Both the position numbers and the translations under genes were made by a program. 64,000 bases of DNA from Bilabrum cf. latius. Lineage: Eukaryota. Position 1 is the stretch's first letter; each line of letters starts with the position of its first letter. A model generated the notes under the pieces. That model ran no database searches and had not been told where the DNA came from. It was given only the letters and a program-made list of their open reading frames with translations. Below, piece by piece: positions 1,561 through 64,000 of this stretch. The DNA lies in assembly GCA_965178125.1 (NCBI GenBank), contig OZ237761.1, forward strand, positions 558,001 to 622,000, given 5' to 3'.

Positions 1561-2291
1561 CTGCAATAGTGCAACTGCCACCATGCAAACGATACGAAAT
1601 ATCATGCTACTCGACTTGCGGATTTAGAACAATGAGGAAAAGCTAGGATAACTATAATGGTTTGACTGACATGCTGTGGGCTCTTAAAGAAGCGAAATTT
1701 GCTCACAAAGATCCGTAAAATCGTGATCTTTTTGAAACGTGTCGTTTTCTCAAAATACGAATTTGGTCGTTCATCGTGCAGCTAGCGTGGTCCACACTGT
1801 TAGATTGTCGCTTCTATTGCGCCAGGCAGTCCATATTGTGCGACAAACACATCATTATACCTAATAGGATTGCTTAGACTGCCAGAAAGTGGTTTGAGAT
1901 TGCCGATTAGCGCTTGGGTCTGCACGTGGTATCGCGAAGGGAGCTATACTAGTGCTCACGTGGAGCCTTTTGTGATTCATAGCAGTCCAGTGTCTTTTAA
2001 ATACAGCTTTAGATTGATTCTGTTGGTCGTTGATCAGGCAGAGAGGGTACGCAGCCGTTTAGAGCAAGCTGAATTAGATCCTGTTCCGACGTGGAAGCTA
2101 CACAGTGAAGCCCAAGTGTCCCAGCTGCAAAGGTATTGAAAGCCATGTCATCAGCAGCCCCGAGAGACCCCAAGGCTGTGTTGGATCACAGCAAGCAGGC
2201 ACGTGCAAAGATGATGCGAGCTGCTCGACGAGGCTCCACCATGCTTCGCTCCGTAACAGCACTGCAGAAAGGCGACCCGAAATAGAAAGTT

Positions 2292-8200: not shown

Positions 8201-11200
8201 CTATCGACCCGGAGCTGCTGCGGGCCGCTGCGCACGAGGAGGAGCAGATTCAGATCAAGGAGGCTGAGGGGGATGGCGCGGGCGATAGCGACCAGCCCAG
8301 GCTGCCGCCCGCCTCGGTGCCGGCGTGGCAGCACTCCTCGGCCGGCAAGCACCTGGGCGTGCAGGGTCAGATGGGAGAGTGGGCGGTGGTGTCTAGGCTA
8401 GCAAGCGAGTCCGGCCTGGCTGCCGTGGGAGCCGCGGACCCCGTGGCCGCCCTGCCCCCTGGTGTCGCACGGCCCCTTCCCTTCGACATCGCGACGGACG
8501 GCCTCGCCAGCCTTTCTCTGGCCGAGCTGAGGGTGTGCCAGGCAGAGCTGGACAACCGTGCCATCATCGTGAAGCTCTCCGAGGCCCTCTCGAGCGGCTC
8601 GGCACAGGGTCCCACGGGCCACCTGGACGTCAGCTGCGTGGACACGGACGGCCTCGAGGATGCAATCTAGTTCGCGGAGGGGGTCGGCTGCACGACGGTG
8701 GAGGCGCGGCAGGTGCTTGCCACGGCCAAGGTGGTGGTCAAGCTCAGGGAGGCCCTCAGGTCGCACGACTGGTCCTACCTCGAGGCGGTGCTGGCGGAGG
8801 CCCACGGAAAGGTGCTCGCCAGCATTGTGGCACCAGAGATGCGGGCTGCGCAGGACGAGCTGGACAACAGGGCGGTACTGGTCGAGCTGACGCAGGCCCT
8901 GTCGCGGGGTAGGCCACAGGGCCAGACCGGCAGGCTGTACACGGGCAGCGTGGAGCTGAAGCCGCTGGAGGAGGCCATCGACATGGCCAGTCGGGTGGGC
9001 ACCAAGACCACCGAGGCGAGGCAGATGCTGTTCACGGCTCGAGTCGTCCTTCGGCTGCGGCACTCGCTGCTGGTTGGCGACCTGAACGAGGCGCAGCTGA
9101 CGCTGCAGGCAGTCCGCGGGCGGCCCGTGGCCACTGTTGCCATGTCGGAGATCCGCATGGCACAGGATGAGGTGGACAACTGGGTGCTGCTGCGCGAGCT
9201 GACGGAGGCCCTCGAGAATGGCAGGGCCAAGGGGACTGTGGGCGCTCTGGAGATCGAGGGCTGCGTGGAGACGGAGGGGCTCGAGGCGGCCATCCGCCGC
9301 GCCGAGGACAGGGGGGTCAAGACTAGGGAGGCACAGGCACTGGTCCTCGGCGCTGTGCAGGCTCTTAAGCTCAGGCGGGCGCTGCTCGCCGGCGACTGGT
9401 CCAAGGTGGAGGCGGTCGTTCGCGAGAGCGCGGGGGTGGCCGGCCTGGCGGCGCTGGCCGTGGAGGAACTCGCGCTGGCCTCGGACGAGCTGGATGACCG
9501 CAGGGTGGTGCGCCTGCTGGAGACGGCTCTGCGGCAGGGCAGCGCGAGGGGCGAGCCGGGCGAGCTAGACCTCAGTGGGGTCGACACCACCGCGCTGGAC
9601 GAGGGGCTCGCGACTGCGTCCGATCTCGGCTGCAAGACGGAGCGCGCGGAGGACCTGCAGAAGGCCGCCAAGCTGATCCGCCGTCTGAGGTCGGTGCTTC
9701 TCGCGGAGAACTGGGAGTGGGTGGCCACGGTGCTCCCGGATGCCAGGCAGGACAAGCGCGTGTTCCCCGTGGAGAGCTTGCAGGAGCTGCAGCTGGTGCA
9801 GGACGAGCTGGACAACAGGACCATCCTCGCCCAGCTGACCGCCGCACTGTCCTCAGGGGCTGCCCGGGGCGCCGTCGGCAGCATCGACGTGGACGGAATC
9901 GACACGGGCGGCCTGGACCGAGCGATATCCTTCTCCCGCCAGCTGGGGTGCAAGACGGTCGAGGCCTCTCAGATGGTCGCAACCGCGCAGCTGGTCCGGA
10001 GGCTGCGGCAAGCCCTCTCCGCGGGAGACCTGGAGCTGGCTGGAGAGCTGCTGGACGGCGTGCGCGGCAAGGTGCTGGCTGCGGCAGCCGCGGAAGAGGT
10101 GCGTGCAATCAAGCACGAAGTGGACAACTGGCGCGTGATCGGGGCGCTGACCTCGGCCGTGAGCGCGGCTGCGGAGGCTGGCATCGACGGGGACGGTGCC
10201 GGAGCCAGCGACGGCGAGGGCAAAGGCCCCGCGAGCAACAGCGCGGCTGCCCGAGCCGCGGCGGCGCTGGCCGGCTCGTCCGGAGGCTCCGATGGGGAGG
10301 GCGCCGAGGGCGGCTCGCTGGCTGTCCTCGACGCTGCCATCGCGCGCACGATGGAGCTGGGCTGCCACACGGCAGAGGCGAGGGATGCCCTCTTCAGCGC
10401 CCTCACCGTGCGCAGGCTGAGGTATGCCGTGGCCGAGGCCGACTGGGACTTTGCCGAGAAGGTGGTGGCCGAGGCAGACAGGGACTCCCACCGCCTCATC
10501 GCCGGCGCGCGGCCCCAGGTGGAGACCGTGAGGGAGGAGCTGGAGCTGCGCAAGGTGCTCAAGGGCCTCCGCAGCGCCGTGGACGCGCAGGACGAGACGG
10601 AGATCAGCTCCTTCCTGGCGCGCGGGGCGCGGCTCGGGCTGGCAGCCCACGCGAGCCAGGAGGTGCGCGCTGCGATGGAGCAGGCCTCCCTGGCTCTCTC
10701 TAGGCTGCACCGGTGTAGGTCCAGTCTGCAGGCCGGTCTCAAGGCCATGGCGGCGCCGCAGCTCGTGGACGCGCTGACGTCTGCCACGTCGATCGGGTTC
10801 CGCGGACCGTTGGTGGATGAGGCCCGCAAGGCGCTGGAGAAGATCCGCGGAGCTACCACAAGGGCGACGCAGGCCCTCCGCACTGTGGACACGGATGCGA
10901 TGGAGGCCAGCCTCCGCGAGTGCGAGAGCATCGGCCTGTCGCTTCCGCTGCTGCGCGACATTCGGGCGCTGCTAGCCCTGCCGCGACCTGTCCTGCTGCA
11001 GAAGCAGGTGCGGGCGGCAGTTGCGTAGGGCGACGCCGAGCGGGTCGTGTCAATCACCATGGAGATCAAGAGCAACTTCTTCGACGAGGGCGGCCGGCTG
11101 GACGACCCGGGCCTCAGCCTGCACAACTACGAAGAGGTGCGCCCGCCGCAGATCGTCAGCGCGTCGTACGGACTGACCGACACCACGGAGGACATGCTTC

Positions 11201-51000: not shown

Positions 51001-52050
51001 CCCCCCCGCTACGGTAATAAATAAATTTATTCCCTTCGGTTAAGGATGATTAACATCATCAATAGTTCCAGTCCATCAGAGCTAAAGCTCTTCAGTCCGT
51101 TCCACTCCTTTTGGAGCTAGTCGCTCCAAAAGTCAAGGTGATCCTCTTCATACTGCTACTTCATATAACTGCTTTATCCTTCTAATTATATAAAATCAAT
51201 TATATATAAAACTCTATACGATGACCATATCCATACTTTGGGTATATATTATAGTAAGTTCTAATCAAAACGTGGATGTAGCCCTCTTGTGAAGGTGTTA
51301 TGGGACTCTAGCCATTTTCTAGCCAAAAGTTCCATCACTTTATGGGACTCCATTATTCAACCTTCTAAACTACCTTCATTATACCCCCTTATCCTCGCTT
51401 ATACCTTCACAAATGGAACCAAACGCGTGTATTATGATTGATGGGTAAAATTCTAAGGCTACCCCCTTGAAATGGCATTTAAGGGCTGAAGTAGTAATTT
51501 AAATATTATTTTGAGGGTTATAATAGCATCTAAATATATAAATATGTGTATAATTATAAATATATGGCGTAGAATGATAAAATGAGGTAGTAATTGATAC
51601 TTTCCAAAGTAGGTTCATACTTTCCAAAGTATCTTCATACTTTTTGAAGTATGGCACAAAATCGCAATAGTGGCTTTAATGGACAACTGAAATTGAATAT
51701 GAATATTTAGATTCATCATTTAATATTAAATGTGGCTCTTTAACCGGATGACATTGAATATGAATAATCAAGTTCACATTTGATTTGAACCTGAATATTG
51801 GAATTCACGATTTCTTAGGAAATATGAGGGTCTAACCAACAGGATTTAATATTAAATTTTAAGCCTTTATTAAGGGTGTATATGCTTAGGATATTACTTT
51901 ATATAATAATCAATATAATTTTCACCATCCACAGGCGGTTATTGTGGGTTAATCCATCAACTGAATAACGGTCGGGCACTCCTTTAAGTATTGGGCAAAA
52001 TAAAATGGATTAAAGGCAAAATAATATAAAATAATATAAGATAATATATA
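51001..52050. repeat. Candidate left terminal inverted repeat / non-coding terminus of the element
   Basis: Starts with a C-run and has no obvious gene. Hairpin cttttggagc-N5-gctccaaaag at 51108-51132. Three ~21-bp palindromic units (tactttccaaagta) at 51597-51654. The partner end is outside the window. Confidence 0.5.
51207..51342 (+). repeat. Conserved structured non-coding repeat, copy 1
   Basis: tatacgatg...atatcc...aaaacgtggatgtag...gttccatcacttta, shared with copies 2 and 3. Confidence 0.85.
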
Positions 52051-52055
52051 ATAAT

Positions 52056-52589
52056 ATGACGGTAGATTATAAAAACTCTAAAATATACAAGCTCTATTGT
52101 GTTGAAGACCCTTCTATTTGTTTCATTGGGGGCACAGCTTAGACGCTATTATCCACGGTTAAAGCTCTTCATAAGCAAAGCAAAAAATTAGATACGGTAG
52201 AACGAAAAGGATTACAGACAACTTATGAGATAGAAATCTTAGAAAAGTATCCCTGTGAGTGTATCAATGAACTAAATAAACGAATAGGTTATTGGTAGCA
52301 ATAGTATCCATCTTGTATTAAGAAAAAATAGCCTAAAGTGAGAGATAGACATCAATATTATTTAGACAACAAAGACCATATTAAAAAAATGACTAAGAAA
52401 TACAGAAAAGAAAACAAACAAAAAATGATTGAATACGACAGACAATACCGAAAGGATAACGAAGCCAAAATAAAAGCAAAAACCCAATGTCCTATTTGTG
52501 AGGCTGTTGTTAATAAATACAAGCTTAAGCAACATCAAGCAACGAAACAATGTCAAGCAATTAAAGCAAAATAGACGCCTAGCGACTAA
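52056..52589 (+). CDS. GIY-YIG-like endonuclease (NCLDV-type, degenerate) with C-terminal zinc finger, 177 aa
   Basis: DYKNSKIYKL...CFIGGTA(TAG)TL...IEILEKYPCECINELNKRIGYW, then CPIC...HQATKQC. Five TAG; TAA stop. Confidence 0.75.
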
Positions 52590-52805
52590 ATATAAATATA
52601 TACTGATCCTAACGCCGGATGGGGTTCGGTGTTGATGCCAGAGTGGGAGCGCGTGAACGTCTCGTTGGGTTCCGATGGCGGTTGCGACCGGGAAGGTGCG
52701 ACCAAGCCAACGGATTGCTTGCGATGACGCGCATACCCTCTCTGTGTTCAGGAGAGGGGCGGAGATTGGGTAATTTTTGCCCACCCTCCCAACCCCCTCC
52801 TCCTC

Positions 52806-52886
52806 GGCGGAGTAGTGCACGTGCTCTTCCCAGCCCCGGTCAGTCCGGTCAAGGGTAGCGCACAGGCACAGCTTTGTCAGGTCTTG
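52806..52886 (+). repeat. Direct repeat copy 1 (copy 2 at 55031-55111)
   Basis: ggcggagtagtgcacgtgctc...gtcaggtcttg is identical in both places. Confidence 0.95.
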
Positions 52887-52909
52887 ACCAACCTCCACCT
52901 GCCTCGAGC

Positions 52910-54796
52910 ATGCTCCCCGGTAGACCAGGCACTCGGGACTTCGGCGATCCGACAGTGCTCGCGGAGGCGCTCAGCAGTGCAGCATCACGGTCAACGGGCC
53001 CGGCAGGCCCTCAGCTTCTTCTTCCTCGTGTGTCTCCGGCTTACGACTCCCCCGGCGTGACTCCGGGCACCAGCCGCTAGCTTGACGCGGTCTGGGGCCG
53101 CCTTCCTGGGGATCTCCAACGGGCAGTGTTGCACTCCACGACGCTGCGGGGAACGGCCGACCCAGCGACAATTCTGCATCTACGCCTGTTTGCGCTGTGG
53201 CACAGCATTCCGACTCTGCGCCAGGAAGAGCTGCTGTCGCGCCTCTCCGCCCACGTGGAATTACAATGGTACTTCTCGCACCGACTGGCAGCCTCGATGC
53301 ACTCATCCCCGCCACCGGTCGACGCTACACCCGCTCATCAGCCACCCCGTGAACCTCCTGTGTCATCTTCTGCCTCACCGCAGCCTGCGTCTTCAATTGA
53401 CCCAGTTTCACCGGGCGCAGGCACGGCAGTGGACTCCGCGGCCGTTCGCTCGCAACCAGTGGAGATTTTGTAGCGTGAGGCCTCTGCACCTTCAATCGCT
53501 GCAATTCGAATGCAGAATTGGTTTTCTGATGATTTCTTGGCAACGTTGACCTCGATCTTTCGCCAATCCGCGTTCATGCCGCGGTTTTGCTAGGCTGACG
53601 CGCTTCATTTGGACGCTAGCGGCCGCGATTTCGCTGCAGAACTGGCCCGTGCTCTGTTTGGTCAGGCCGTGACGAGAGCCAAGATTGAATCGGCTATTTT
53701 CTCGTTCACGAGCCGGCTTCATGCAGCTCTGCCGATGAGCAATGCTAGTTTTGGGAAGTTCGATGCGTCCAACTCGGAGTCGTCTGCTGCAGGCGGACGA
53801 GAAAAGTAGGTGCCATCTAGCGAGTTACTATGCACTATTTACTCGGCTATTTCCTTTGCTTTAGGCTGTGTGCTCGTGCGCGCTGCTTGCGTGCATTCGG
53901 CGGCGTCCTTGCCGTCCTGGTTGCCGCAGGGCAGCAGCTCGTGGTCGTGTCCAGCATCACTAGTGCCCGATTGGAAAACCCTGGGGCAGGTTCGCAATGA
54001 TTTTCTTCGTTTGGTTAGTGCTTCCGGGGCATCATCTGCATCGGCGTCCCGACTAGAGGTGGTGTTTGCCGCTGTGTGTGTGATACCACGCGGAAGTTCA
54101 GCCTTTGAGATGCTCTCCTCCCATGCTTGGCGCCATACAGGCGAACGCTGTGACGTTGAGGTTCGTGACCTTGTTGGGAATGAGATTCCTTCGTGCTCTT
54201 CTGGCGACTGCATGCGTCTCCTACAATTGCTGCATCCGTGGGCCACTGAGGCATGCAGATCAGGCGAACCTGGCCTCGTGCGCGGACTGCTACAGGGAGT
54301 CCAGGCTGACATGCAGGCGCCGTCCCGTCGAGCAGCACTGTCCCGTCACTTCGACCCCCGCGGGGGCAGTGGAGGCCGGGGCAGTGGAGGCGGGGGCAGT
54401 GGAGGCTCCAGGCGCAGTGGGGGCGACAGCGACCAGCCCAGTACCGATCGTGGCGGAGGTCGACACCGTCGAGGCCGTGGACGTGGCGGTGCAGGCCAGC
54501 AAGGTGGCCAGCACCAGCGTGCGGACCGGCAGGACGGGGGTTCCACCAGGAAGTCCAAGGAGCCTTCACCTGACCCTCCCCCACGAGGTACGTCACGTCA
54601 GAGCCAGCCCCAACTGCAGGCGCAGACGAAGACTACGCCCGGTAGCTGGCGCTCAGCTGCCCCACGTCAGGGCCAGTCTTCGTGGCGAACACGAAGCCGA
54701 TCGTCAAGGCGCAGGTCGTACGGGCGCTCCGCAGCTTCTGCTCACGAGAAGTTGCAGGAGCGGTGCACGGACATTCCATCCGCATCGCGGCAGTGA
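52910..54796 (+). CDS. Retroelement ORF1 (gag-like by position), ~628 aa
   Basis: Four track ORFs in one frame joined through TAGs at 53078, 53471, ~53591 and 53807. Gly/Arg-rich C-terminal region. Gag assignment rests on position only. Confidence 0.6.
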
Positions 54797-54990
54797 TGTG
54801 TTTGGACCGTGCTGGGGTCGCCTTCGAGGTCATTAGGCGATTCGGCAGATGGAAGTCGGCATCTGCATGCGAGGTGTACTTGCGGGGCGTCAGGGAAGGC
54901 TTGCCTCCTCTGGAGCTCGGCGGCAGGAGCCTCGATTTGAACAGGCCAGTGTGGGTGCTGGCCAGCGCGCTGCGGCTGAACTTGGAGTGA
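54660..54990 (+). pseudogene. Tyrosine recombinase C-terminal remnant
   Basis: GHSIRIAA...IRRFGRWKSASACEVYLR carries the HxxR, GRWxS and catalytic Tyr motifs of DIRS/Ngaro YRs. The N-terminal catalytic Arg region is missing. Confidence 0.8.
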
Positions 54991-55196
54991 GCCACACAGC
55001 CGCAGCGTACAAGACATGGCGGTAAGATTTGGCGGAGTAGTGCACGTGCTCTTCCCAGCCCCGGTCAGTCCGGTCAAGGGTAGCGCACAGGCACAGCTTT
55101 GTCAGGTCTTGCCATGTCTGATTGTGGTGTATCCATATATGTATATATTCTCATCGTTTTTTTAAAACTCAAAAATTATAACTTAGTATTATAGAT

Positions 55197-55967
55197 ATGA
55201 ACTTTAATAATTATGTCATTGAAAATCCCGTCCTAATGAAGCAGATTTATAAGGCTACAGACCATATTACGGATAGCACGCAGAAAATTTTAGAGACCAT
55301 TACTACGTATGTAGATTTAGGTGGTAAGTTTTCCAAACCTAAATTAATTAATAAAAATATAGTTAGTGATATTAAAGAGAAAAAAGCCGTCAAAAAACCC
55401 AAGAAAGAAGAGAAACAGAAGATACAACACGATAATAACGACCAAGTTGAAATTAAGCAAACATACATTCTAGATAAATTTAATGACTATAAACCACCAA
55501 ATAATAAAATTTATAATGATGTAGATGATTTACAACCGCCAGAATTAATTAGATAGACCGCAATAGATGAAAAATTAACCGGTATGGAGCCTGACAGTGA
55601 AAGCGAAATAAACAGCGTTAGTACCGAACAAGACTAGATAGAAGCAGAAACTGATGACGAAATGATACCTGAGGAAGAGAAAAAAATAATAGGTGATTTA
55701 ATTAAATTAGAGAATCAGGATTATAGGTATAAAGTGTCCGTAAATGGAAATGATGTATTTTTTGGTGAAATTAATTTACCCGATGTAGAGGCTCTTAAGA
55801 AATAGTTTAGCCCTCGTAAATTACAAATTATGATATCAAAAATAAAAAGGAATTATAATATTAATAATAGCGATGATATCAACAGCCCTGAGTTTTGGAA
55901 TAGCCGGGTATATTTGACCCTTGATGTGAAGGCCGAACACGAAAAACTACAAGATATCTATAATTAA
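55197..55967 (+). CDS. Viral hypothetical protein (256 aa); C-terminus resembles the C-terminal domain of 60085..60792
   Basis: Open through TAGs to TAA. YKVSV...VFFG...KRNY...SPEFWNSRV parallels YMIKV...VHFG...KKNY...SPAFWSRFV. Confidence 0.7.
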
Positions 55968-56030
55968 AAGCCCCTACAACTTAATAAACGGGCTAGAATT
56001 TAATTAAATATTTTAATATAACCGCTATAT

Positions 56031-56170
56031 TAAAATCTATACGATGGCTATATCCACAAATTGCGTATAATTATATAGTATTTCTAGCAAAACGTGGATG
56101 TAGGGCCTCTTGTGAAGGTGGTATGGGACCTTTAGATAATTTTTAAAAATAGTTCCATCACTTTAGAAGG
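56031..56170 (+). repeat. Conserved structured non-coding repeat, copy 2
   Basis: Stem ctatatccac (56048-56057) pairs with gtggatgtag (56094-56103); second stem 56114-56129 pairs with 56152-56164. Confidence 0.85.
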
Positions 56171-56283
56171 TGTTAAAATACACCATTCATATCACAATCT
56201 ATTTTTTAGGGCTAAATGGCAAAAATCACCTTTTACCTTCATTAATTATTATAGCCCCTTTAAGCCCTCTATAATTAAATATG

Positions 56284-56302
56284 GCGTTTAAAATAGTTTA
56301 AA
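56284..56302 (+). promoter_or_regulatory. Viral promoter motif GYGTTTAAAATRRYTTAAA, 47 nt upstream of ATG
   Basis: The same motif lies 46-48 nt before four viral start codons. Confidence 0.7.
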
Positions 56303-56330
56303 AATATATTTCTAATAATATATATAGAAA

Positions 56331-59108
56331 ATGAATAATAAAAACCTCGTTAGTTTCCCCATCAAGCACAATCAAAAAATACCCGATGTTAAAAGCTGGC
56401 GTTATCTCACCAAACCCGAGCCTAAACGATTTAATAATCAGAATATGGCTATTATCACCGGAGAAATTAATAATATAACCGTGTTTGATATTGATTCATA
56501 TAAATGGAGCGATAAGAAGGAGCATTTATTCATCAAGAAATTTTCAGATGACTTTGTGAAGCGGTTCAACACATTCACGGTTAAAACAGCGGGTGGAGGG
56601 TATCATTTATATTTTAAATATGATTAGAATATATTAACTACCACCAATAGAGATATTGACGTTGATATTCGTAATGATGGGGCTTATGTAGTGGCACCAC
56701 CAAGTGGCATAAATGGGTCAAAATACGAAGTTATTAATAATGTAGAAATAAAAAAATGTCCTAAGGAGCTTTATAAATTTTATGAAAAGTATATTATTAA
56801 ATCCTCTAAGAAATCCAACGTAAAAGGGGCGAGTAAAAGGATATCAAAAATTGATAATCAAGATGTGAATAACTGTATGATGAAATTCATTCTAAATGGT
56901 AAAGACTGGTCAATTATATTAAATAGATTAGATAAGAAATATTTAAATAATTATAGTGATTGGTATAAAGCAACCCTAGCGAGTAAATATTTAGGATTTA
57001 AGAAGGAATGGTAGGAGTGGAGCAAGAAGGGCAATAAATACGACTACCACAAAAATAACAAGGTGTGGAACTCTATCCATTATTTTGATAAGTTAAAAAC
57101 CTTTAATTTAGTTAATTCAATAATTTAGAATGATAAAAGTTTAAAGGCATTTGTGAAGGATAAGTATATTTCAAAGTGTTATTATCGTCCTTATGACGAG
57201 AATATTAACGGGTATACAGAAATTAATAAACCTAAGTTAGATGATATAGAGAAGCCCGAACGCTTTTTTAAATATGAATATAACTATGTGGTAAAAAGTG
57301 ATACAGGAACAGGTAAAACAACAGCATTTAAGAAGTATATTAAACAGGTTCAAACGCCGTTCTTATCCATTGTGTCCCGTGTATGTTTAGGCACAGAGCA
57401 ATACGAGAGCTTTTTAAATGAAGATATTAAATGTGAGTTCTACCAGAATAAAGATTTTGATTTTGGATAGTCTCTTATTATTACGCCGGAAAGTATCCCC
57501 CAAATTGTGAATTATGATTTTTCTAAATACATCGTATTCTTGGATGAATTCAATAGCATTATAGAGCATATATTAAGTTCTACCACGATGAATAATAATA
57601 GGGTTCTTGTATTATTTATTATTTTAAAAATGATAAGGACGTGTAAATAGTTTATTGCTGTAGATGCTGACATATCCCAGATAGCGATGAAATTTTTAAA
57701 ATGTGCTGGAGTAGAATTTAGCTTCATTAAGAATAAATATAAGCATTTTAAGGACGTAAAAGTATATTTTGAAAAAGACCAATAGAAATTTTACGATAAA
57801 TTAAAAAGTGAAGATAAATTTATACTGGCGTGTGATAGCAAGAAGAACGCAGATACATTTTATAAAATGTTATGTAAAGATGGTATAGAGGACGTTAAAT
57901 TAATTACTAGTGATTTATTACCTGATGAAGATGTGAGCTTAGATAAATATGATAAAATTATATTTAGTCCTAAAGTCATTTACGGATTAGATAGTGTAAT
58001 GGAACGCCCAGTGTATGGATTATATAAAGGAAAAACGATTCTACCGCCGTAGATGATGTAGCAACTGGCAAGATGTAGAAATCCCGAATATATGAATATA
58101 TATTTTGAAGATGTAAAATCCATTTATCCAAGATATGAGAATTTAAAGGAGGTATAGACGACCTTAAATATGGAAATTAACGCATAGACAGATTTATATA
58201 CTAAATTAGAAAAATACGAAAAAAGGATAATGTAGGAGAATGATATTGACATTGATATTTTTGAGGGAGAAGATGATGAAGAGATAGCCCATAAAGCAAT
58301 GATAGAGGCATCATACAAGGTTTATTTACCACTCAAGAAATTATATAATTTCAAATGTGATACATACGAAACAAATAAATATATTCATTTATAGCTTATT
58401 CTTAAAAACAGGGGTGCCGATGTATAGGTGGATAAGGAATTACCACAACGAATGAATAAATAGCAGATGAAAGAGGCGACAATGGAGATACTACAAGAAA
58501 AGATTGATTCAATTGATGTAGAGAACGACCATATAAAAAGAAGAATTGAAATTTTAGGGCTACCAGAGACAGCCATAACGGAGGATATTAAAATGTTATT
58601 AATTGATAATTACAAATTAATGAATTATTTTAATTATGCTAATTTCAAGAGAAAAGATAAATATAAACTAATGACAGAATTAAAGGATAGAAAGGATTTT
58701 AAGGATGAGAAAGCAAAAAGTACAAAGAATAAAATAATCATATTATAGGAGATGTTATAGACGCTTAAATTGAATAAATTTGATTTAAGTTATACACGTA
58801 AAAATGAGAAATCCATTAAATATATAGAAATGGGTAAAAGATATGTAGAAGTAAGCGGGGCGAGATTATAGAAGCCAATAGAAACCGATAGTGAATTACA
58901 CGGGGCAATAGTAAAATTATATAAGTAGTTATTTGGAAATATTAAAACCTCTTGGAGTATGGGAAATAAAAAGGATAAAAAGGATAGAGAATTAAGAATT
59001 AAATTCACCAAGGAGAAAGAATTATTTGATGAAGTTTATAAATATTAGTATCCCGAAATGAAGGACATATACAAGGAATCCAACGAACGATTAGATCAGA
59101 ATATTTAA
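56331..59108 (+). CDS. Bifunctional prim-pol + PriCT-2-like + SF2 (UL9/origin-binding-like) helicase, 925 aa
   Basis: ITVFDID, TAGGGYHLYF, DIRNDGAYVVAPPS; YSDW...EWSK; KSDTGTGKT, FLDEFNS, M(TAG)QLARCR. About 19 in-frame TAG, no internal TAA/TGA; TAA stop. Confidence 0.9.
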
Positions 59109-59120
59109 TACCTTTTTTAT

Positions 59121-59139
59121 GTGTTTAAAATAACTTAAA
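59121..59139 (+). promoter_or_regulatory. Viral promoter motif, 46 nt upstream of ATG 59167
   Basis: gtgtttaaaataacttaaa. Confidence 0.7.
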
Positions 59140-59166
59140 CATTATATATTTATATAATATATAGTG

Positions 59167-59469
59167 ATGAGCGATATTTAGAGTTCAAGCAATACAGAGG
59201 AGCAACCAAAAATTAATTATATGTAGGAATATTACAAAACAAACAAAGACAAATGGAATAAAAAATATTTAGCTAGAGGAAATGAAAAAGTTAAATGCGA
59301 TGTGTGTGATTGTTATTATAGAAGGAAGGACAGAACGAGACACGAACGAACGAAGAAACACCAAAAAAATCTCAAAGAACCAAAAAAGGATATACTAGAG
59401 GAATATATCAAAAAACTTAATCAAACCCTGCTTAATAGCGGGATTAAACCACCGGAGATATCAATTTAA
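59167..59469 (+). CDS. C2H2 zinc-finger protein, 100 aa (absent from the ORF track)
   Basis: CDVCDCYYRRKDRTRHERTKKH. Two TAG; TAA stop; preceded by the promoter motif. Confidence 0.78.
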
Positions 59470-59509
59470 ATTTATCTATTTATTTATTTTTTATAAATAA
59501 AAAGATTTT

Positions 59510-60031
59510 TCAACCTTTAATAACCATCCAATTAGCGGACCAATCATTAGAGGAATTACCACCCGTTAAATGAATCGTAAATCCATCGGTTCCTGCTACT
59601 ACGTGGGAAAATTCAACCGGCTCACTGGCGGGGGTGATTGTAGTAATAAAAACCAAATCACTAGAAGTCATACCCGGAACACTAGCAAATTCAGTAGCAC
59701 CTCCACCACTCCAATTTACCCTTCCTTTATGCGCTACGGTGTTATTTGCTACTACTTCACCTTTTACGGTTAAATCACATTCGTGACCGTCTTCATCAAA
59801 ACTCATAACTAAACCAGCAGATGCGGTATTGGCACCGAATCGTAAAGCTTCACCCGAAGTGATGTAAGAGATACCCTTACTGTCAAGATGTAATCCTGCG
59901 TTGCTAACAACTACATCACTACTATTCACAACAGCATTTACATATAGACCACTACTATCTAATCTACCAGTTGCGACATTCTTACATTGAATAGATATAT
60001 CATTAGGTTGCGATAATCTTGCTAAGCTCAT
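59510..60031 (-). CDS. Viral hypothetical protein, Gly/Ser/Val-rich, possibly a virion fibre or minor structural protein (173 aa)
   Basis: Intact ORF with beta-strand-like composition. Function is inferred only. Confidence 0.65.
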   Translation of the reverse strand: MSLARLSQPNDISIQCKNVATGRLDSSGLYVNAVVNSSDVVVSNAGLHLDSKGISYITSGEALRFGANTASAGLVMSFDEDGHECDLTVKGEVVANNTVAHKGRVNWSGGGATEFASVPGMTSSDLVFITTITPASEPVEFSHVVAGTDGFTIHLTGGNSSNDWSANWMVIKG

Positions 60032-60084
60032 TTTTTGTATATATAAATAAGAGAAAAACTAAAACTTATATCAAACCTATAATA

Positions 60085-60792
60085 TTAAACTTTCATTAAT
60101 TTTTTAGCTCTATCTACGGCGTCCATAAAGCTATCTTTTAATGTTGGTTCATTCCATAATACAAACCTAGACCAAAAAGCGGGGGATTTATAGTCTTTAA
60201 AGTCTTCATTTATTGAATGTCTTTTAATATAATTTTTCTTTTTACGGTTTGCTTCCTTCTCTCCATCTTTATTATAATATTGTATAAAGTCCATATAAGG
60301 GGTACCATCATTCTTAATTCCACCAAAATGAACAGTAAACAGAATATTATTACCTTGAACTACTTTAATCATATATTTTTTATTAGATTTAGTTGATTTA
60401 TATAAATTAAAAACTGGTTTAGGTCTAAATGATTTCACGTGTCCGTTATTAAATTTTTCCTTCATTGCTTCCTCTATTTCTTCCGTGTCTAATTCTCCAA
60501 AGGTTAAAGGGGTCTCTTTATTTATTCTTTTAGTGGGTCTATATATATCTCCTTTTTCCTAATATCCCTTTTCTCCCTTCTAATTCTTCCAATCCTCTAA
60601 TTTCCATCGTCTTAAATTTTTCTATGCTTCATTTAATTTAATTTTATCATATGTCCCCCCTAGTTTTTTATAACGAGCAAAATATGCTAATGAACGATAA
60701 GCTGAAGGCTTTTTATACGTTCTATTTACTTTCTCAACTGCCTGACGCCATAATTTAGGATTATTAATATAACTAGGTATATTATCATTCAT
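60085..60792 (-). CDS. Two-domain conserved viral protein (DUF5872-like + Tlr6F/DUF5754-like), 235 aa
   Basis: KPSAYRS...YKKLGG, RWKLEDWKN(TAG)KGEKGY, DIYRPTKRI; then KKYMI...VHFG...YMDF...YIKRH...SPAFWSRFVLW. TAA stop. Family names are from recall and unverified. Confidence 0.7.
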
Positions 60793-60800
60793 CTATATAA

Positions 60801-60959
60801 TTAATAAAATGATAATTTTTTAATTGCGTGAGCCGTTTTCTTTCTGTATTCTTCATAGAGTCTTTTATTATTTGGATTCTTCATCAATTTATTTTTTACC
60901 TTCTTTAATGCCTTCTTAATAGCATACTAAACAAAGATATTACTAATAATATTAATCAT
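60801..60959 (-). CDS. Small basic viral protein (52 aa)
   Basis: ATG..TAA frame with one TAG that fills the gap between neighbouring genes. Confidence 0.45.
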
Positions 60960-60986
60960 ATATTATATAATTAATAAATATTTAAT

Positions 60987-62510
60987 TCAAAGTATAAAAC
61001 CGCCTTTTTTTCCTTTCCTTGATATAATTTCTTCTTTTTCATTTACGACCATTAAATCATTCTATCCGTGGATAATTAATTTCTATCCTTCTTTACCCTC
61101 TTCTTCAATCTTAAAATATCCTATTGCTTTTGCTGTGCGTAGGCGTATTTTTTTATTAAAAGTGATACTGTCGGTGTGTATTCTCACGATATATTTAGCG
61201 TTGTTCTAATTCACTTTCTTCATCAACTTAGACCGTCCATAACTCAACAAAAATGGCTTTATTTTTCCCCAGCTATATTTAAATGGCACCTTGTGTTTTA
61301 GATGATAAATAAATTCTCCGTCATCATCCATCTCCACACGGTCTATATTGAATTTGTCTATATTAATTTTGTCATTTTTAGAGGTTATAACCTTTTTCTT
61401 AGAACTACATAATTTACCCCATAGAGAATTTAATATTTCTTTGGCTAGACGTAATACATTCTTTAATTTAAAACATAATGCTGTCCTCCTGATATCATTA
61501 AATATACTCACATACTTAAAAAAAAGGCTATCACCTTTAATATATTTATCATAGGTCATAAAATTAAATTCGTCGCTTGACATCTCTATCTCACAACCAT
61601 ATTTAACAAACATATTAATATCAGTAAAGACATAATAAGTAAATTCATTTTCAAATACCTTCATCATTTGAAAGATATTCGGGTCGCATTTCCCTTGGCT
61701 CACCTTACATTTATAAATCCCTATTTCATTATTTTTAATTATCTAATTATTTTCAACTCGTTTATATATGGGGTTTCCGTATGGAAATAATGAACTTGAT
61801 GACATAATGGCGGGGTAATGACTATTTATATCGTAGGTGATAAACTCCTCATATTGTCCCTTCTTGTGATATTGAATCCCGCCACGCGTTGAACCTTCAA
61901 TAAATACCGCTTCCTCTGGGGTTATATCTGGTGGGCTATCTATCATCATATTAAACATTGTAAAGAAATGAAGGGCTGTTTGTCTGATTCCATATTTCAT
62001 TACATCTAATGATGGGTTCTCATCGTGTAATTCATCACTTGCTATACTCAACCTTAAACTCCATTCTTTGATATCTTCATCCTCTGGGCATTCGTGAATG
62101 GTATAATGAAGATAATATTTCTTTGAATGATAATCGGTCAGGCTCTCAACTCTATATTTATCTTTTTCAATTATTTCGGCTTTATCGGTTAATTTAACAA
62201 CCATAGATTTATGGCACCGCACAAATAAAGGTTTCATCCTCTAGACGGCTTTAAATGAACCATCTTTATATTCTAAACAAACCCTTTTAAAACTCTCTTT
62301 TTTCCTACTTAGATAATAGACCTTTATATCGTCTTTCTCTCTAATCTCTATATCCATTTTTAAACCTGAAACAAGTTTATAAAGGTTCTTTGTAGTTATG
62401 GGCTTACCGTTAAATACCTTTTCTAGATACTTTACGGATTGAATGGGGTTATCATACTTTTTACCAAAGCATATATTTAATTGATTTAACACATTTTCGT
62501 AATTTATCAT
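60987..62510 (-). CDS. polB: Protein-primed family B DNA polymerase, compact (507 aa)
   Basis: RGG, motif A YDINSHYP, motif B KEILNSLWG, motif C IHTDS. Motif C lies beyond the TAG at 61206. Five TAG; TGA stop. Confidence 0.88.
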
Positions 62511-62539
62511 TTCCTATAGTATATTATATTTAATATATT

Positions 62540-62558
62540 TTTAAGCCATTTTAAACAC
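62540..62558 (-). promoter_or_regulatory. Viral promoter motif, 48 nt upstream of the polB ATG
   Basis: Reverse complement reads gtgtttaaaatggcttaaa. Confidence 0.7.
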
Positions 62559-62588
62559 ATATTATAAAGTTTAAATTATAAAATGTAA

Positions 62589-62930
62589 TTATTGTTTCGG
62601 AGCAGTGAGGATTAATATAAATCTCTTCACTTGCTCATCACTTAAGAAGGTATAACGAGAAGAAGGACTGAATAGCATTACATCATCCTTTAGTTTAAAT
62701 ACTGACGAAGTTCGCCAGCCTATGGGGTAGAGAGAACTAACATACGCATCATAATTTTTTAAATGGGGCTTTTGTTTTAATAATCTCTAGATATATTTTT
62801 TTAATAAAGTCTTCATTTCTAAATCATTATATCCATCATCTGGACGAGGAGGAAACACAAAATTATATACGGGCTTATTGTTTTTAATAAGTTGAGTTCT
62901 AACAATTTGAATATCACGTAATTTAACCAT
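62589..62930 (-). CDS. Viral hypothetical protein (113 aa)
   Basis: ATG..TAA with one internal TAG; partial promoter motif upstream. Confidence 0.6.
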
Positions 62931-62975
62931 TTTTATATATATACTATAGATATTTTATTTTTAAGCCAAATAGAC

Positions 62976-62994
62976 GCGTTTAAAATGACTTAAA
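62976..62994 (+). promoter_or_regulatory. Viral promoter motif, 47 nt upstream of ATG 63023
   Basis: gcgtttaaaatgacttaaa. Confidence 0.7.
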
Positions 62995-63022
62995 GATTTT
63001 ATTTTATTATAATATATATAGA

Positions 63023-63568
63023 ATGTCAAAATTTGAGAGTTATGAACCGAGCGAATTAATGGAACTTTTAGAAGAAGGAGCCGTAAAGAAAGCCAAGAAA
63101 TATATTAATCAATTCTTCTTTAAAACTTTTAAAGGGATATTTTTTAATAATACCGTAGAAGATAAATTTGAACTAGTGGATGAAGACGAATTAAATGGTT
63201 TGTATCTAACCCCTGATATGAAGACCGACAGCGCCAAAAATCCATTTGTTCCATACATTTATATGTTTTCTAGTGAGCCCCCGATTTATTATACAGGAAA
63301 TTTTGAGAGTAAAGACCCCATAATGACAATTAAAAAGAAGGACAAACCCATCAAATATATTAATTTGTCATACGGTCAATTTATACCCGAGGAAGTAGAG
63401 GAACCAGAAGAAGAAGAAGAACCAATAAGACCCAAGAAAAAGACTAAGAAGAGGAATAAGAAGAAACAAAAACGTGATAATAATAGAAATGTTGATAAAC
63501 CAGATGATGAAGATGATGATGAAGAAACCTTTAGAGACCAACTAAACGAGGCATTAAAAGATTTCTAA
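63023..63568 (+). CDS. Viral hypothetical protein with acidic/basic tail (181 aa)
   Basis: Intact ORF, TAA stop, promoter motif upstream. Confidence 0.75.
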   Translation: MSKFESYEPSELMELLEEGAVKKAKKYINQFFFKTFKGIFFNNTVEDKFELVDEDELNGLYLTPDMKTDSAKNPFVPYIYMFSSEPPIYYTGNFESKDPIMTIKKKDKPIKYINLSYGQFIPEEVEEPEEEEEPIRPKKKTKKRNKKKQKRDNNRNVDKPDDEDDDEETFRDQLNEALKDF

Positions 63569-63680
63569 ATAATTTAATATTTCTACTAATATTAAATATG
63601 ATATCTTTATTAAAAGTTGAACACCTTGACCATCTAATAAAAGGGCTAGAATATTAAAATATATATGGTTATCTCTATAT

Positions 63681-63820
63681 TAAAATCCATACGATGGCTA
63701 TATCCACAAATTGCGTATTAGTATATGTATTATTTAGCAAAACGTGGATGGATTAGCTTTATGAAGATGATTTGATTGATAACGTATTTCTAGCCCAAAA
63801 GTTCCATCACTTTAGAAGGT
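63681..63820 (+). repeat. Conserved structured non-coding repeat, copy 3
   Basis: tacgatggctatatccacaaattgcgtat...agcaaaacgtggatg...gttccatcactttagaagg. Confidence 0.85.
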
Positions 63821-63979
63821 TGTAATATAGCCCCTTCTAACTCCCATCATCAATATGTTAAATATTAATTTTATCATTAATATCTAATTATTATTTACCA
63901 ATATGACATTTATAACAAATTGAATATTTCATATCTTTAATTCTAGACACTCCGCATTTTTTACACGCCTTTTTTCCAT

Positions 63980-64000
63980 TGATGCCAGAGTGTACGCGCA
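63980..64000 (+). mobile_element. Possible left end of a second YR-retroelement insertion
   Basis: TGATGCCAGAGTG is identical to the first 13 nt of the 52633 element, at an AT-to-GC transition. Confidence 0.5.

What the first reader, a model, noticed from the sequence alone, without database searches (positions are those of the whole stretch)
51001..64000. Endogenous Polinton-like virus/virophage that is itself recoded to the host's TAG=Gln code
Seen: the 925-codon primase-helicase has ~19 in-frame TAG and no TAA/TGA despite very AT-rich sequence. PolB motif C is reached only through TAGs. TAG occupies typical Gln sites (GIY-YIG GTA*T, M*QLARCR beside helicase motif VI, WKN*). Eight of ten viral genes end in TAA, showing TAA is still a stop. 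The ORFs show no frameshifts, so this is not decay. Inference: a eukaryotic dsDNA virus lineage adapted to, and restricted to, a recoded host. Any helper giant virus would face the same code. Standard-code virus mining would miss such elements.
Basis: partly seen in the sequence, partly recalled or inferred. Interest (0 to 1): 0.92.

Follow-up and report, generated by a model that had tools for sequence, protein, structure and literature searches.

The report
Integrated virophage that reads TAG as glutamine
An AT-rich virophage-type mobile element sits in the GC-rich genome of a single-celled eukaryote that reads TAG as glutamine, and the element's own genes use TAG the same way, so it probably cannot be expressed in hosts with the standard code.

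Summary
From about 51,001 to the window end lies a 29-32% GC element, next to 55-71% GC host DNA.

- **Stop codons:** its nine ORFs (2,668 codons) hold 38 in-frame TAG, no TAA and no TGA. Seven end in TAA and two in TGA.
- **TAG is glutamine:** TAG sits at an invariant Gln of the primase-helicase (74 of 74 homologues). Close relatives have Gln at 7 of 13 and 3 of 5 TAG sites.
- **Host code:** nine long host ORFs also carry in-frame TAG.
- **Virus type:** the replication genes group with those of metagenomic virophages that have Sputnik-type capsid genes. One near-complete relative shares the primase-helicase, the PolB-like gene and a zinc-finger gene.
- **Missing parts:** no capsid, ATPase, protease or integrase gene lies in the roughly 10.5 kb available. 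The rest of the element is beyond the window.
- **Residence in the host:** a high-copy GC-rich host repeat is inserted at 52,604-55,129. Copies without it, and variants about 0.5% different, occur in public runs.

This is a new member of a known kind. Polinton-type elements that use the host's TAA/TAG=Gln code were reported in Streblomastix, and the nested layout matches the endogenous virophages of Cafeteria. Interest is moderate.

The parts
51001..51183 (.). Junction with host DNA and the left non-coding end of the element. It starts with a run of nine C, then GCTACGGTAATAAATAAATT.
   Evidence: GC switch seen. Host contigs of runs X1 and X2 end at 51029 with 0 differences and at host-like depth. 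No ORF of 60 aa or more lies between 51025 and 52035.
51184..51370 (+). Copy 1 of a roughly 190-nt intergenic repeat.
52056..52589 (+). ORF of 177 aa with 5 TAG and a TAA stop.
   Evidence: Homologues found by tblastn in 5 of 80 virophage-type loci. No Pfam hit at E <= 0.01.
52604..55129 (.). GC-rich insert of 2,526 nt: an internally deleted copy of a high-copy host repeat, with an 81-nt perfect direct repeat at 52806-52886 and 55031-55111.
   Evidence: Contigs of X1 and X2 join 52603 to 55130, which is the empty site. k-mer depth is 2,000-10,000 against about 100 for the host flank. A contig of X6 has about 3 kb more at 54607/54610. No Pfam domain in its ORFs.
55197..55967 (+). ORF of 256 aa, acidic, 3 TAG, TAA stop. 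Function unknown.
56003..56190 (+). Copy 2 of the roughly 190-nt intergenic repeat.
56286..56302 (+). Promoter-like motif GTTTAAAATNNYTTAAA, 45 nt before the primase-helicase ATG. Other copies are at 59123-59139 (+), 62540-62556 (-) and 62978-62994 (+).
   Evidence: 4 exact matches; 0 in 100 shuffles of the whole window. Each lies 41-46 nt upstream of a start codon.
56331..59108 (+). Primase-helicase of 925 aa with 19 TAG and a TAA stop.
   Evidence: Pfam Prim-Pol 7.1e-16 and PriCT_2 3.3e-06. 312 homologues at E <= 0.001, most of those listed about 900 aa long. TAG columns analysed.
59164..59469 (+). ORF of 101 aa with a zinc-finger-like motif, 2 TAG and a TAA stop.
   Evidence: zf-U1 at E 0.018, below the cut-off. 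Homologue next to the PolB-like gene in L041 and L029.
59510..60031 (-). ORF of 173 aa, 41% GC, no TAG, TGA stop. Weak leads point to a lectin or fibre-tip-like protein.
   Evidence: leads only; no Pfam or PHROG hit
60085..60792 (-). DUF5872-family protein of 235 aa with 3 TAG and a TAA stop.
   Evidence: Pfam DUF5872 3.3e-21. Homologues in 6 of 80 loci.
60987..62510 (-). Protein-primed-type family B DNA polymerase-like protein of 507 aa with 5 TAG and a TGA stop.
   Evidence: Pfam DNA_pol_B_2 2.7e-14. Family profile against phi29 polymerase 1.6e-08. AF2 model pLDDT 86.3; best fold match phi29 polymerase, E 3.3e-14. P0121 is 87-89% identical.
62589..62930 (-). ORF of 113 aa with 1 TAG and a TAA stop. 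It matches the N-terminal ~105 residues of the ~600-aa PolB-like family, so the gene is split here. It is in the same frame as the PolB ORF, 26 codons upstream.
   Evidence: hhalign probability 96.4%, E 1.1e-09, to profile positions 6-108 of 606; frame and gap
63023..63568 (+). ORF of 181 aa, no TAG, TAA stop. Function unknown.
63653..63840 (+). Copy 3 of the roughly 190-nt intergenic repeat.
63950..64000 (.). Probable start of a second GC-rich host repeat. It shares TTGATGCCAGAGTG with 52630-52645 of the first insert.
   Evidence: read; k-mer depth rises in the last bin in X1 and X5. This is an inference.

Best explanation
This is the left part (about 10.5 kb without the insert) of an endogenous virophage-type element. 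It belongs to the Polinton/virophage class of small dsDNA viruses and is integrated in the nuclear genome of a GC-rich, intron-poor eukaryote.

The host's translation system reads UAG as glutamine and stops at UGA and, as the element's own genes indicate, at UAA.

The element is translated by that system, so TAG is an ordinary Gln codon for it. Under its strong AT bias TAG has become 38% of its Gln codons, while TAA stays the main stop.

The window holds the replication module: a primase-helicase, a split protein-primed PolB-like gene and small DNA-binding proteins. Four of the nine genes share a promoter-like motif.

The element exists in several slightly different copies. This copy has been invaded by at least one high-copy host repeat.

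**Shown:** the codon pattern, Gln at TAG sites, homology to virophage replication genes, the insert and its empty site, and variant copies.

**Inferred:** a capsid module beyond the window, dependence on a giant virus, and loss of expression in standard-code hosts.
For: **Codon counts.** 38 TAG, 0 TAA and 0 TGA in frame in 2,668 codons, against 330 TAA and 201 TGA in 5,336 off-frame codons.

**Primase-helicase alignment (74 of the 120 listed homologues).** Gln makes up 13.8% of residues at the 19 TAG columns against a 2.9% background. None of 2,000 random column sets reaches that. TAG577 is Gln in 74 of 74, TAG440 in 40 of 74, and TAG574 in 20 of 74, where it is the commonest residue.

**Close relatives.** P0129 and P0130 (62-72% identical) have Gln at 7 of 13 TAG sites, against 10 of 13 CAA/CAG sites and 4.6% Gln overall (P = 6e-07). 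P0121 (87-89% identical PolB) has Q, Y, K, Q, Q at the five TAG sites.

**Variation between copies.** One variant copy changes CAG to TAG at codon 923. 7 of 9 listed differences in the primase-helicase are synonymous.

**Host.** Nine ORFs of 835-3,282 aa open only when TAG is read as sense (67 TAG in all). All nine end in TGA. In the GH47 mannosidase, TAG571 and TAG1119 align to Gln of the human enzyme.

**Virophage kinship.**
- L001, the closest IMG/VR relative, has Sputnik_MCP_1st 7.8e-34, MCP_V20_C 5.8e-17 and penton V18-19 5.8e-15.
- The tree puts the window with P0001-P0003, sister to the clade that holds L001 (local support 95).
- The record of L041 (21,279 bp, CheckV 99%) has the capsid gene (4.9e-52), the penton gene, a primase-helicase, a PolB-like gene and an o101-like gene.

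**Residence in the host.** Contigs of X1 and X2 run from host DNA to 51029 with 0 differences, at depths 76.6 and 50.4, close to the flank. The joint 52603>55130 shows copies without the insert. Variant contigs differ by about 0.5%.

**No tRNA gene in the window**, so the window holds no suppressor tRNA gene of the element's own.
Against: - No capsid, penton, packaging ATPase, protease or integrase gene lies in 51-64 kb. The element is cut by the window end.
- The host contigs reach only 29 letters into the element, under the 31 the tool asks for a bridge. X1 or X2 may be the data the window was assembled from. No long reads were available.
- Some TAG sites sit at columns that are not Gln in homologues: TAG906 is Arg in 68 of 74 (though Gln in P0001), TAG228 is Asp in 51 of 74, and GIY-like TAG81 and TAG92 are Ile in 4 of 5.
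- The PolB-like gene is split relative to its ~600-aa family. It has Ser where 53 of 57 relatives have a conserved His, so part of the element may be degenerating.
- The pieces P0129 and P0130 show a broken gene in the closest relative, for unknown reasons.
- Pattern scans found no relative with TAG at Gln577 or Gln578 in IMG/VR or JGI metagenomes.
- Whether the host itself stops at TAA is not shown by host genes in this window.
Confidence: 0.8

Rival explanations
1. The AT-rich part is a capsid-less Polinton-like transposon or an integrated linear plasmid, not a virus. It would be a self-replicating element with a primase-helicase and a protein-primed PolB that also follows the host code.
For: No structural gene lies in the 10.5 kb seen. 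The PolB-like family is poorly annotated: 7 of 8 relatives scanned have no Pfam hit.
Against: The nearest full-length primase-helicases lie on contigs with Sputnik-type capsid and penton genes. A CheckV-99% record combines the same replication genes with those capsid genes. Only about half of a typical 17-26 kb genome of this group fits in the window (contig lengths).
Confidence: 0.1
2. Assembly chimera or contaminant. The AT-rich sequence would belong to a free virus or to another TAG-recoded organism in the sample and was joined wrongly to host DNA.
For: There is a homopolymer (nine C) at the junction. k-mer depth of the AT-rich part is several times that of the flank and differs between runs. 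No long-read check was possible.
Against: Contigs of two runs from different samples continue from host DNA into the element at host-like depth with 0 differences. A repeat of host-like composition that is also high-copy in the host runs is inserted in the element. The element shares the host's rare TAG usage.
Confidence: 0.06
3. Decaying pseudogenes, or TAG read as a residue other than Gln.
For: TAG906 and TAG228 lie at Arg and Asp columns. The closest relative's gene is in pieces.
Against: Only one of the three stop codons is ever in frame: 38 TAG against 0 TAA and 0 TGA, in 29% GC DNA. There are no frameshifts. Differences between copies are mostly synonymous: 20 of the 30 listed rows that lie in ORFs. 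Gln is the most enriched residue at TAG columns at 4.8-fold; the next is Arg at 2.4-fold.
Confidence: 0.03

Closest known systems
Endogenous mavirus-like elements (EMALEs) of Cafeteria burkhardae (Hackl et al. 2021, eLife, PMC8547959; passages read)
   Same: AT-rich virophage genomes embedded in a GC-rich protist genome, in many slightly different copies. About one in four is interrupted by GC-rich retrotransposons. The low-GC types carry both a primase/helicase and a protein-primed PolB.
   Different: No code change is described there. Here the element and host read TAG as Gln. The nearest relatives' capsid genes are Sputnik-type by Pfam. The insert here shows no reverse transcriptase or recombinase domain (it is an internally deleted copy). 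The capsid, integrase and terminal repeats of this element were not seen.
Endogenous Polinton-type viral elements of Streblomastix strix that use the host's TAA/TAG=Gln table (Bellas et al. 2023, PNAS, PMC10120064; passages read)
   Same: An integrated small dsDNA virus whose genes follow a non-standard nuclear code of the host. The authors read this as a long association.
   Different: In that case both TAA and TAG are Gln, and the elements were found through capsid genes of a metamonad Polinton group. Here only TAG is recoded, TAA is the element's main stop, and the kinship is with virophages.
Nuclear code with UAG=Gln and UAA kept as a stop (Iotanema spirale; Panek et al. 2017, PMC5304391; abstract read)
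   Same: The same codon table as inferred here: UAG is Gln, and UAA and UGA are stops.
   Different: It describes an organism's code and no virus. Whether the present host is related to that organism is unknown.
Code-15 (TAG=Gln) bacteriophages such as crAss-like phages (PMC9523058; search listing and start of abstract only)
   Same: Virus genes full of in-frame TAG read as Gln.
   Different: Those phages use a code different from that of their host. Here the code is the host's own, and the window holds no tRNA gene.

Membership tests
Virophage (Sputnik/mavirus-type small dsDNA viruses) | Double jelly-roll major capsid protein and penton protein | tested here: inconclusive
   None in 51-64 kb (Pfam; tblastn with L001's capsid and penton genes), but the element is cut by the window end. 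Relatives L001, L002 and L041 have both.
Virophage (Sputnik/mavirus-type small dsDNA viruses) | Replication gene groups with those of virophage genomes | tested here: met
   In the tree of 75 primase-helicases, the window clade is sister to the clade holding L001 (local support 95). Contigs with Sputnik-type capsid genes lie on both sides of the tree.
Virophage (Sputnik/mavirus-type small dsDNA viruses) | Packaging ATPase and cysteine protease | tested here: inconclusive
   Not found in the window part. Not searched in relatives.
Virophage (Sputnik/mavirus-type small dsDNA viruses) | Replication depends on a giant virus | not testable with these tools
   No giant-virus sequence in the window.
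Polinton/Maverick-type element | [quoted passage not shown] | tested here: met
   DNA_pol_B_2 2.7e-14. Family profile against phi29 polymerase 1.6e-08. Fold match to phi29 polymerase E 3.3e-14, TM 0.45-0.51. Exonuclease motifs were not checked.
Polinton/Maverick-type element | Retroviral-type (rve) integrase and terminal inverted repeats | tested here: inconclusive
   No integrase domain in the nine ORFs. Only one end of the element is in the window, so inverted terminal repeats cannot be seen.
Nuclear code with TAG=Gln and TAA/TGA stops (NCBI table 15 pattern) | In-frame TAG in conserved genes, at Gln positions of homologues | tested here: met
   Element. Host: 2 of 3 alignable TAG sites are Gln in solved homologues.
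Nuclear code with TAG=Gln and TAA/TGA stops (NCBI table 15 pattern) | TAA and TGA still terminate | tested here: met
   Met for the element: 0 in-frame TAA or TGA, and 7 TAA and 2 TGA ends. If TAA were read through, tails would run 10-1,105 codons. For host genes only TGA ends were seen (9 of 9).
Nuclear code with TAG=Gln and TAA/TGA stops (NCBI table 15 pattern) | tRNA-Gln with anticodon CUA, altered eRF1, peptide evidence | not testable with these tools
   No tRNA gene in the window. No whole genome is held.

The most novel reading that the evidence does not exclude
This virophage lineage took up the UAG=Gln code recently. Its closest relative, about 70% identical, has Gln at most of the same sites across 437 codons that a standard-code gene caller read as one open frame. 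The virophage is still active in a host with the rare UAG-only reassignment. Its helper giant virus must then live under the same code. That would make a host, giant virus and virophage trio sealed off from standard-code relatives by the genetic code.
Probability: 0.3. Interest if true: 0.8.

Novelty: new member of a known kind. Interest (0 to 1): 0.6.

Why it matters
**A code barrier to host range.** With 19 TAG codons in its main replication gene, the element should be unreadable in a standard-code host.

**Evidence on the host's code.** The AT-rich element gives the clearest evidence in this window that the translation system stops at TAA while reading TAG as Gln. Host genes here, which are GC-rich and all end in TGA, cannot show that. 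UAG-only reassignment is rare in eukaryotes.

**Blind spot in virus mining.** Standard-code gene calling cuts these genes into pieces of 61-165 aa. Mining pipelines built on such calls would miss or misjudge elements like this one.

**A second nested system.** The layout of host repeat inside virophage inside host repeats what was described for Cafeteria. It offers a second system for asking why mobile host repeats land in integrated virophages.

Tried and rejected
- **Whole genome:** none is held, so the contig could not be extended and other copies could not be read.
- **Scans for TAG at invariant Gln577 or Gln578:** 0 hits in IMG/VR and 0 in JGI metagenomes. The CAR control gave 34 hits in IMG/VR. 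No positive control was run on the metagenome collection.
- **Sequencing runs:** no RNA holder is listed. Run X5 (another organism label; host flank identical, at low depth) has no cover of 55340-63343. Its kind (RNA or DNA) is uncertain, so this shows neither silence nor absence.
- **k-mer depth:** depth of the element is 2-13 times that of the flank, but depth from contigs is not a copy number. Integrated multi-copy and free viral DNA could not be told apart.
- **RNA and tRNA:** Rfam gave no credible RNA family in 50.9-64 kb. ARAGORN found no tRNA.
- **Uninformative searches:** PHROGs, and Pfam for o256, o173, o181 and the insert's ORFs, gave no convincing hit. A single-sequence PDB search with PolB found only a chance hit (E 0.69). 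BLASTP of o113 against P0123 and P0151 was marginal; the profile comparison settled it.
- **Protein atlas for o173:** weak lectin or fibre-tip leads only.
- **Wider PolB family:** its columns at the five TAG sites are variable and uninformative.
- **Tree:** the first maximum-likelihood run did not finish. The FastTree result is used instead.
- **Promoter motif:** it is not shared by relatives; 4 of 111 loci, from two contigs, have one match each.
- **Papers:** supplementary files were not requested. Tables of elements in Bellas 2023 and Hackl 2021 might list similar cases.

Full report
**1. What is in the sequence**

The window is 55-71% GC up to about 51.0 kb. It then drops to 45-51% over 50-56 kb and to 29-31% from 56 kb to the end.

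Reading the sequence puts the switch at 51001-51010: host-like DNA, nine C, then AT-rich DNA.

The intermediate GC of 52-55 kb comes from a GC-rich block at 52604-55129. It carries an 81-nt perfect direct repeat.

Under the standard table the AT-rich part holds only short ORFs of 61-181 aa. With TAG read as a residue it resolves into nine tightly packed ORFs of 101-925 aa on both strands.

Across these nine ORFs there are 38 in-frame TAG, no TAA and no TGA in 2,668 codons. The two other frames of the same stretches hold 330 TAA, 201 TGA and 136 TAG in 5,336 codons. Seven ORFs end in TAA and two in TGA.

If TAA were not a stop, the seven TAA-ended genes would run on for 10 to 1,105 codons and pass up to 10 more TAA.

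The observation therefore stands and is far beyond chance.

**2. TAG means glutamine**

*Wide alignment.* The 925-aa ORF has Prim-Pol and PriCT_2 domains. It has 312 homologues at E <= 0.001; most of the 120 listed are about 900 aa long, and the best is 49% identical. I aligned 74 of the 120 listed, leaving out 46 lower-ranked or lower-coverage rows.
- At the 19 TAG columns the homologues have Gln in 13.8% of cells, against 2.9% overall. None of 2,000 random sets of 19 columns reaches this.
- Gln is the most enriched residue at 4.8-fold; Arg is next at 2.4-fold.
- The 15 CAA/CAG columns give 19.9% Gln.
- TAG577 lies at an invariant Gln next to the arginines of the last helicase motif (74 of 74). 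TAG440 is Gln in 40 of 74. TAG574 is Gln in 20 of 74, where it is the commonest residue.

*Sites that do not fit.* TAG906 lies at a column that is Arg in 68 of 74, and TAG228 at one that is Asp in 51 of 74. In the small GIY-like ORF, two TAG sites align to Ile in 4 of 5 distant homologues.

*Closer relatives are clearer.*
- Two pieces on one ENA contig, P0129 (437 aa, 72% identical) and P0130 (234 aa, 62% identical), have Gln at 7 of the 13 TAG sites they cover. They have Gln at 10 of 13 CAA/CAG sites and 4.6% Gln overall (binomial P = 6e-07).
- P0001 has Gln at TAG906.
- For PolB, P0121 (499 aa, 87-89% identical, full length) has Q, Y, K, Q, Q at the five TAG sites. P0122 has Q, E, K, E, Q.

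*Variation between copies.* Among the differences that variant copies in public runs show against the window, one is CAG>TAG (primase-helicase codon 923) and one is GAG>TAG (o101 codon 12).
- 7 of the 9 listed differences in the primase-helicase are synonymous if TAG is Gln (P = 0.0013 against a 25% expectation).
- 20 of the 30 listed rows that lie in ORFs are synonymous.
- Only 40 of 358 differences were shown by the tool. I left out the 6 that lie in the insert.

**3. The host uses TAG as sense too**

In 1-51 kb, nine ORFs of 835-3,282 aa appear only when TAG is read through (67 TAG in 13,192 codons). All nine end in TGA.

They are ordinary eukaryotic genes. They include a myosin with MyTH4, a GH47 mannosidase (5.4e-135), a PAPS-reductase/ATP-sulfurylase fusion, and ankyrin and FAD/NAD-binding proteins.

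In segments alignable to solved structures, GH47 TAG571 and TAG1119 both face Gln of the human enzyme. ATP-sulfurylase TAG436 faces Glu of the yeast enzyme.

TAG is 11% of the host's TAG+CAA+CAG codons and 38% of the element's.

TAA is rare in every frame of host genes. Its meaning in the host is therefore shown only indirectly, by the element.

**4. What kind of element**

*Relatives of the primase-helicase.* An alignment-based scan of IMG/VR gave 122 relatives among 507 pattern matches. 80 were kept, mostly from contigs of 17-26 kb.
- The closest, L001 (37% identical), encodes a Sputnik-type major capsid protein (Sputnik_MCP_1st 7.8e-34, MCP_V20_C 5.8e-17) and a penton (V18-19, 5.8e-15).
- By tblastn that capsid type is seen in 6 of the 80 loci (L001-L005, L007) and nowhere in the window.
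- In a FastTree tree of 75 primase-helicases, the window pairs with P0001 (100), then with P0002+P0003 (100). This four-member clade is sister to a 15-member clade that holds L001 (95). These are local support values, not bootstraps.

*Shared accessory genes.* The GIY-like ORF has homologues in 5 loci, the DUF5872 protein in 6, and the PolB-like and o101-like genes in L041 and L029.

*A near-complete relative.* The whole record behind L041 (21,279 bp, CheckV 99%) has the capsid gene (4.9e-52) preceded by the penton gene (5.5e-12). L002's record also has the capsid gene. L029's record (72% complete) has neither. So the same replication-gene set occurs in a near-complete virophage genome.

*The PolB-like protein.*
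- It matches Pfam DNA_pol_B_2 over the palm and fingers (2.7e-14).
- It belongs to a large unannotated family: 708 representatives at E <= 0.001, typically 600-620 aa. 7 of the 8 relatives I scanned have no Pfam hit.
- A profile of 58 members hits the phi29 polymerase (1.6e-08).
- An AlphaFold model of the window protein (pLDDT 86.3, pTM 0.85) is closest to phi29 polymerase (E 3.3e-14, TM 0.45-0.51).

*The gene is split here.* The 113-aa ORF just upstream, in the same frame and 26 codons away, matches the first ~105 positions of the family profile (hhalign 96.4%, E 1.1e-09). Relative to its family the gene is therefore in two ORFs, and the second has its own promoter-like motif. P0121 starts at the same Met.

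The window protein has Ser where 53 of 57 relatives have a conserved His. Whether the split is functional or early decay is open. One possibility is a separate N-terminal domain, as with terminal proteins of other protein-primed systems; that comparison is recalled and was not tested.

*Promoter-like motif.* A 17-nt motif, GTTTAAAATNNYTTAAA, lies 41-46 nt before the start codons of four genes. There are 4 exact matches and 0 in 100 shuffles, though the shuffles were of the whole, mostly GC-rich window.

*What is missing.* No capsid, ATPase, protease or integrase gene is in the window part. About half of a genome of this size class would lie beyond 64,000.

**5. Is it really in the host genome?**

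No long reads were available. Four public runs of one study hold the junction region.

When their contigs are laid on 44-64 kb, contigs of X1 (2,206 nt) and X2 (13,989 nt) run through the host flank with 0 differences. Both stop at 51029, at depths 76.6 and 50.4, close to the flank's depth. That is 29 letters into the element, just under the 31 the tool requires for a bridge. One of these runs may be the assembly's own data, so this is supportive but not decisive.

Contigs of both runs join 52603 to 55130 with one A between. These are copies of the element without the GC-rich block.

The block itself has a k-mer depth of 2,000-10,000 against about 100 for the flank. It also occurs in the runs of two other organism labels. 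A contig of X6 has about 3 kb more at 54607/54610. The window's insert is therefore an internally deleted copy of a high-copy repeat of at least 5.3 kb. It has no recognisable domain.

The last 50 nt of the window repeat a 14-nt string from near the start of that insert, and depth rises there. This suggests a second insertion; that is an inference.

Most element contigs differ from the window by about 0.5% and have several times the flank's depth. A contig identical to the window has depth 36.7 in X2.

A run of another study and organism label (X6) holds 55.2-63.5 kb at 1-4% divergence, without most of the host flank.

So several versions of the element exist. Whether all are chromosomal or some are free viral DNA cannot be told from contigs.

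The shared rare code, the inserted host repeat and the junction contigs together make a chimera unlikely.

**6. How it most likely works**

The host's ribosomes, with a tRNA that reads UAG as Gln and a release factor that ignores UAG, translate the element's mRNAs. TAG is therefore neutral as a Gln codon.

The element's AT bias and CAG>TAG transitions then raise its share of TAG. The relatives show Gln at most of these sites. TAA, also favoured by the AT bias, stays the stop.

The result is an element whose main replication gene has 19 would-be stops in any standard-code cell. If it is a virophage, its helper giant virus is translated by the same system.

These last two points are inference.

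**7. Comparison with what is known**

- **Cafeteria burkhardae endogenous virophages** are the closest analogue for architecture. They are AT-rich elements in a GC-rich genome, in many copies, a quarter of them interrupted by GC-rich retrotransposons. The low-GC types have both a primase/helicase and a pPolB (PMC8547959, passages).
- **Bellas et al. 2023** are the precedent for the coding aspect. They state that endogenous viral elements in Streblomastix strix use the host's TAA/TAG=Gln table (PMC10120064, passages).
- **Paez-Espino et al. 2019** noted an ochre-suppressor tRNA in a virophage as a possible sign of stop reassignment in hosts (PMC6905037, passage).
- **Iotanema spirale** has UAG=Gln with UAA kept as a stop (PMC5304391, abstract).
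- **Literature searches.** My four searches found no report of a virophage-type element with TAG-only recoding. This covers only the held open-access library, and no supplements were seen.

**8. Verdict**

It is another case of a known phenomenon and not a new category. What is new is the combination of virophage kinship with a UAG-only code, and the use of the element as evidence for how the host treats UAA.

Confidence in the main explanation is 0.8. Interest is 0.6.

Noticed in passing
window 2638-49980: All nine long host ORFs need TAG read as sense (67 TAG) and all end in TGA. Together with the element's TAA stops, this points to the rare UAG-only Gln reassignment in a GC-rich, intron-poor eukaryote that has a myosin, a GH47 mannosidase and a PAPS-reductase/ATP-sulfurylase fusion.
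   Followed up: partly
window 52604-55129 and about 63950-64000: A GC-rich, high-copy host repeat is inserted in the element. It is internally deleted and has an 81-nt direct repeat. Copies of the element without it exist in the same runs. A second insertion seems to start at the window end.
   Followed up: partly
window 51184-51370, 56003-56190, 63653-63840: Three copies of a roughly 190-nt intergenic repeat with strongly conserved blocks (for example AGCAAAACGTGGATG and AGTTCCATCACTTTA). There is no Rfam match and the function is unknown.
   Followed up: partly
window 60987-62930 (-): The PolB-like gene is split into a 113-aa N-terminal ORF and a 507-aa polymerase ORF. They are in the same frame, 26 codons apart, with a promoter-like motif between them. 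A His conserved in 53 of 57 relatives is Ser here.
   Followed up: yes
window 59510-60031 (-): This 173-aa ORF differs from its neighbours: 41% GC, no TAG, a TGA stop, rich in Ser, Gly and Val. Language-model leads point to lectin or fibre-tip-like proteins. It may be a virion or attachment protein, or a captured gene.
   Followed up: partly
window 52350-52560 and 59220-59400: The C-terminus of the GIY-like ORF and the 101-aa ORF share a basic stretch followed by a Cys/His zinc-finger-like motif. This was seen by eye and as DNA repeat D13.
   Followed up: no
proteins P0129, P0130 and P0150 (ENA contigs): Close relatives of the primase-helicase and PolB occur in public assemblies only as pieces. 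P0150 starts at the first Met after the window's TAG90. This may mean that those relatives are TAG-interrupted too.
   Followed up: partly
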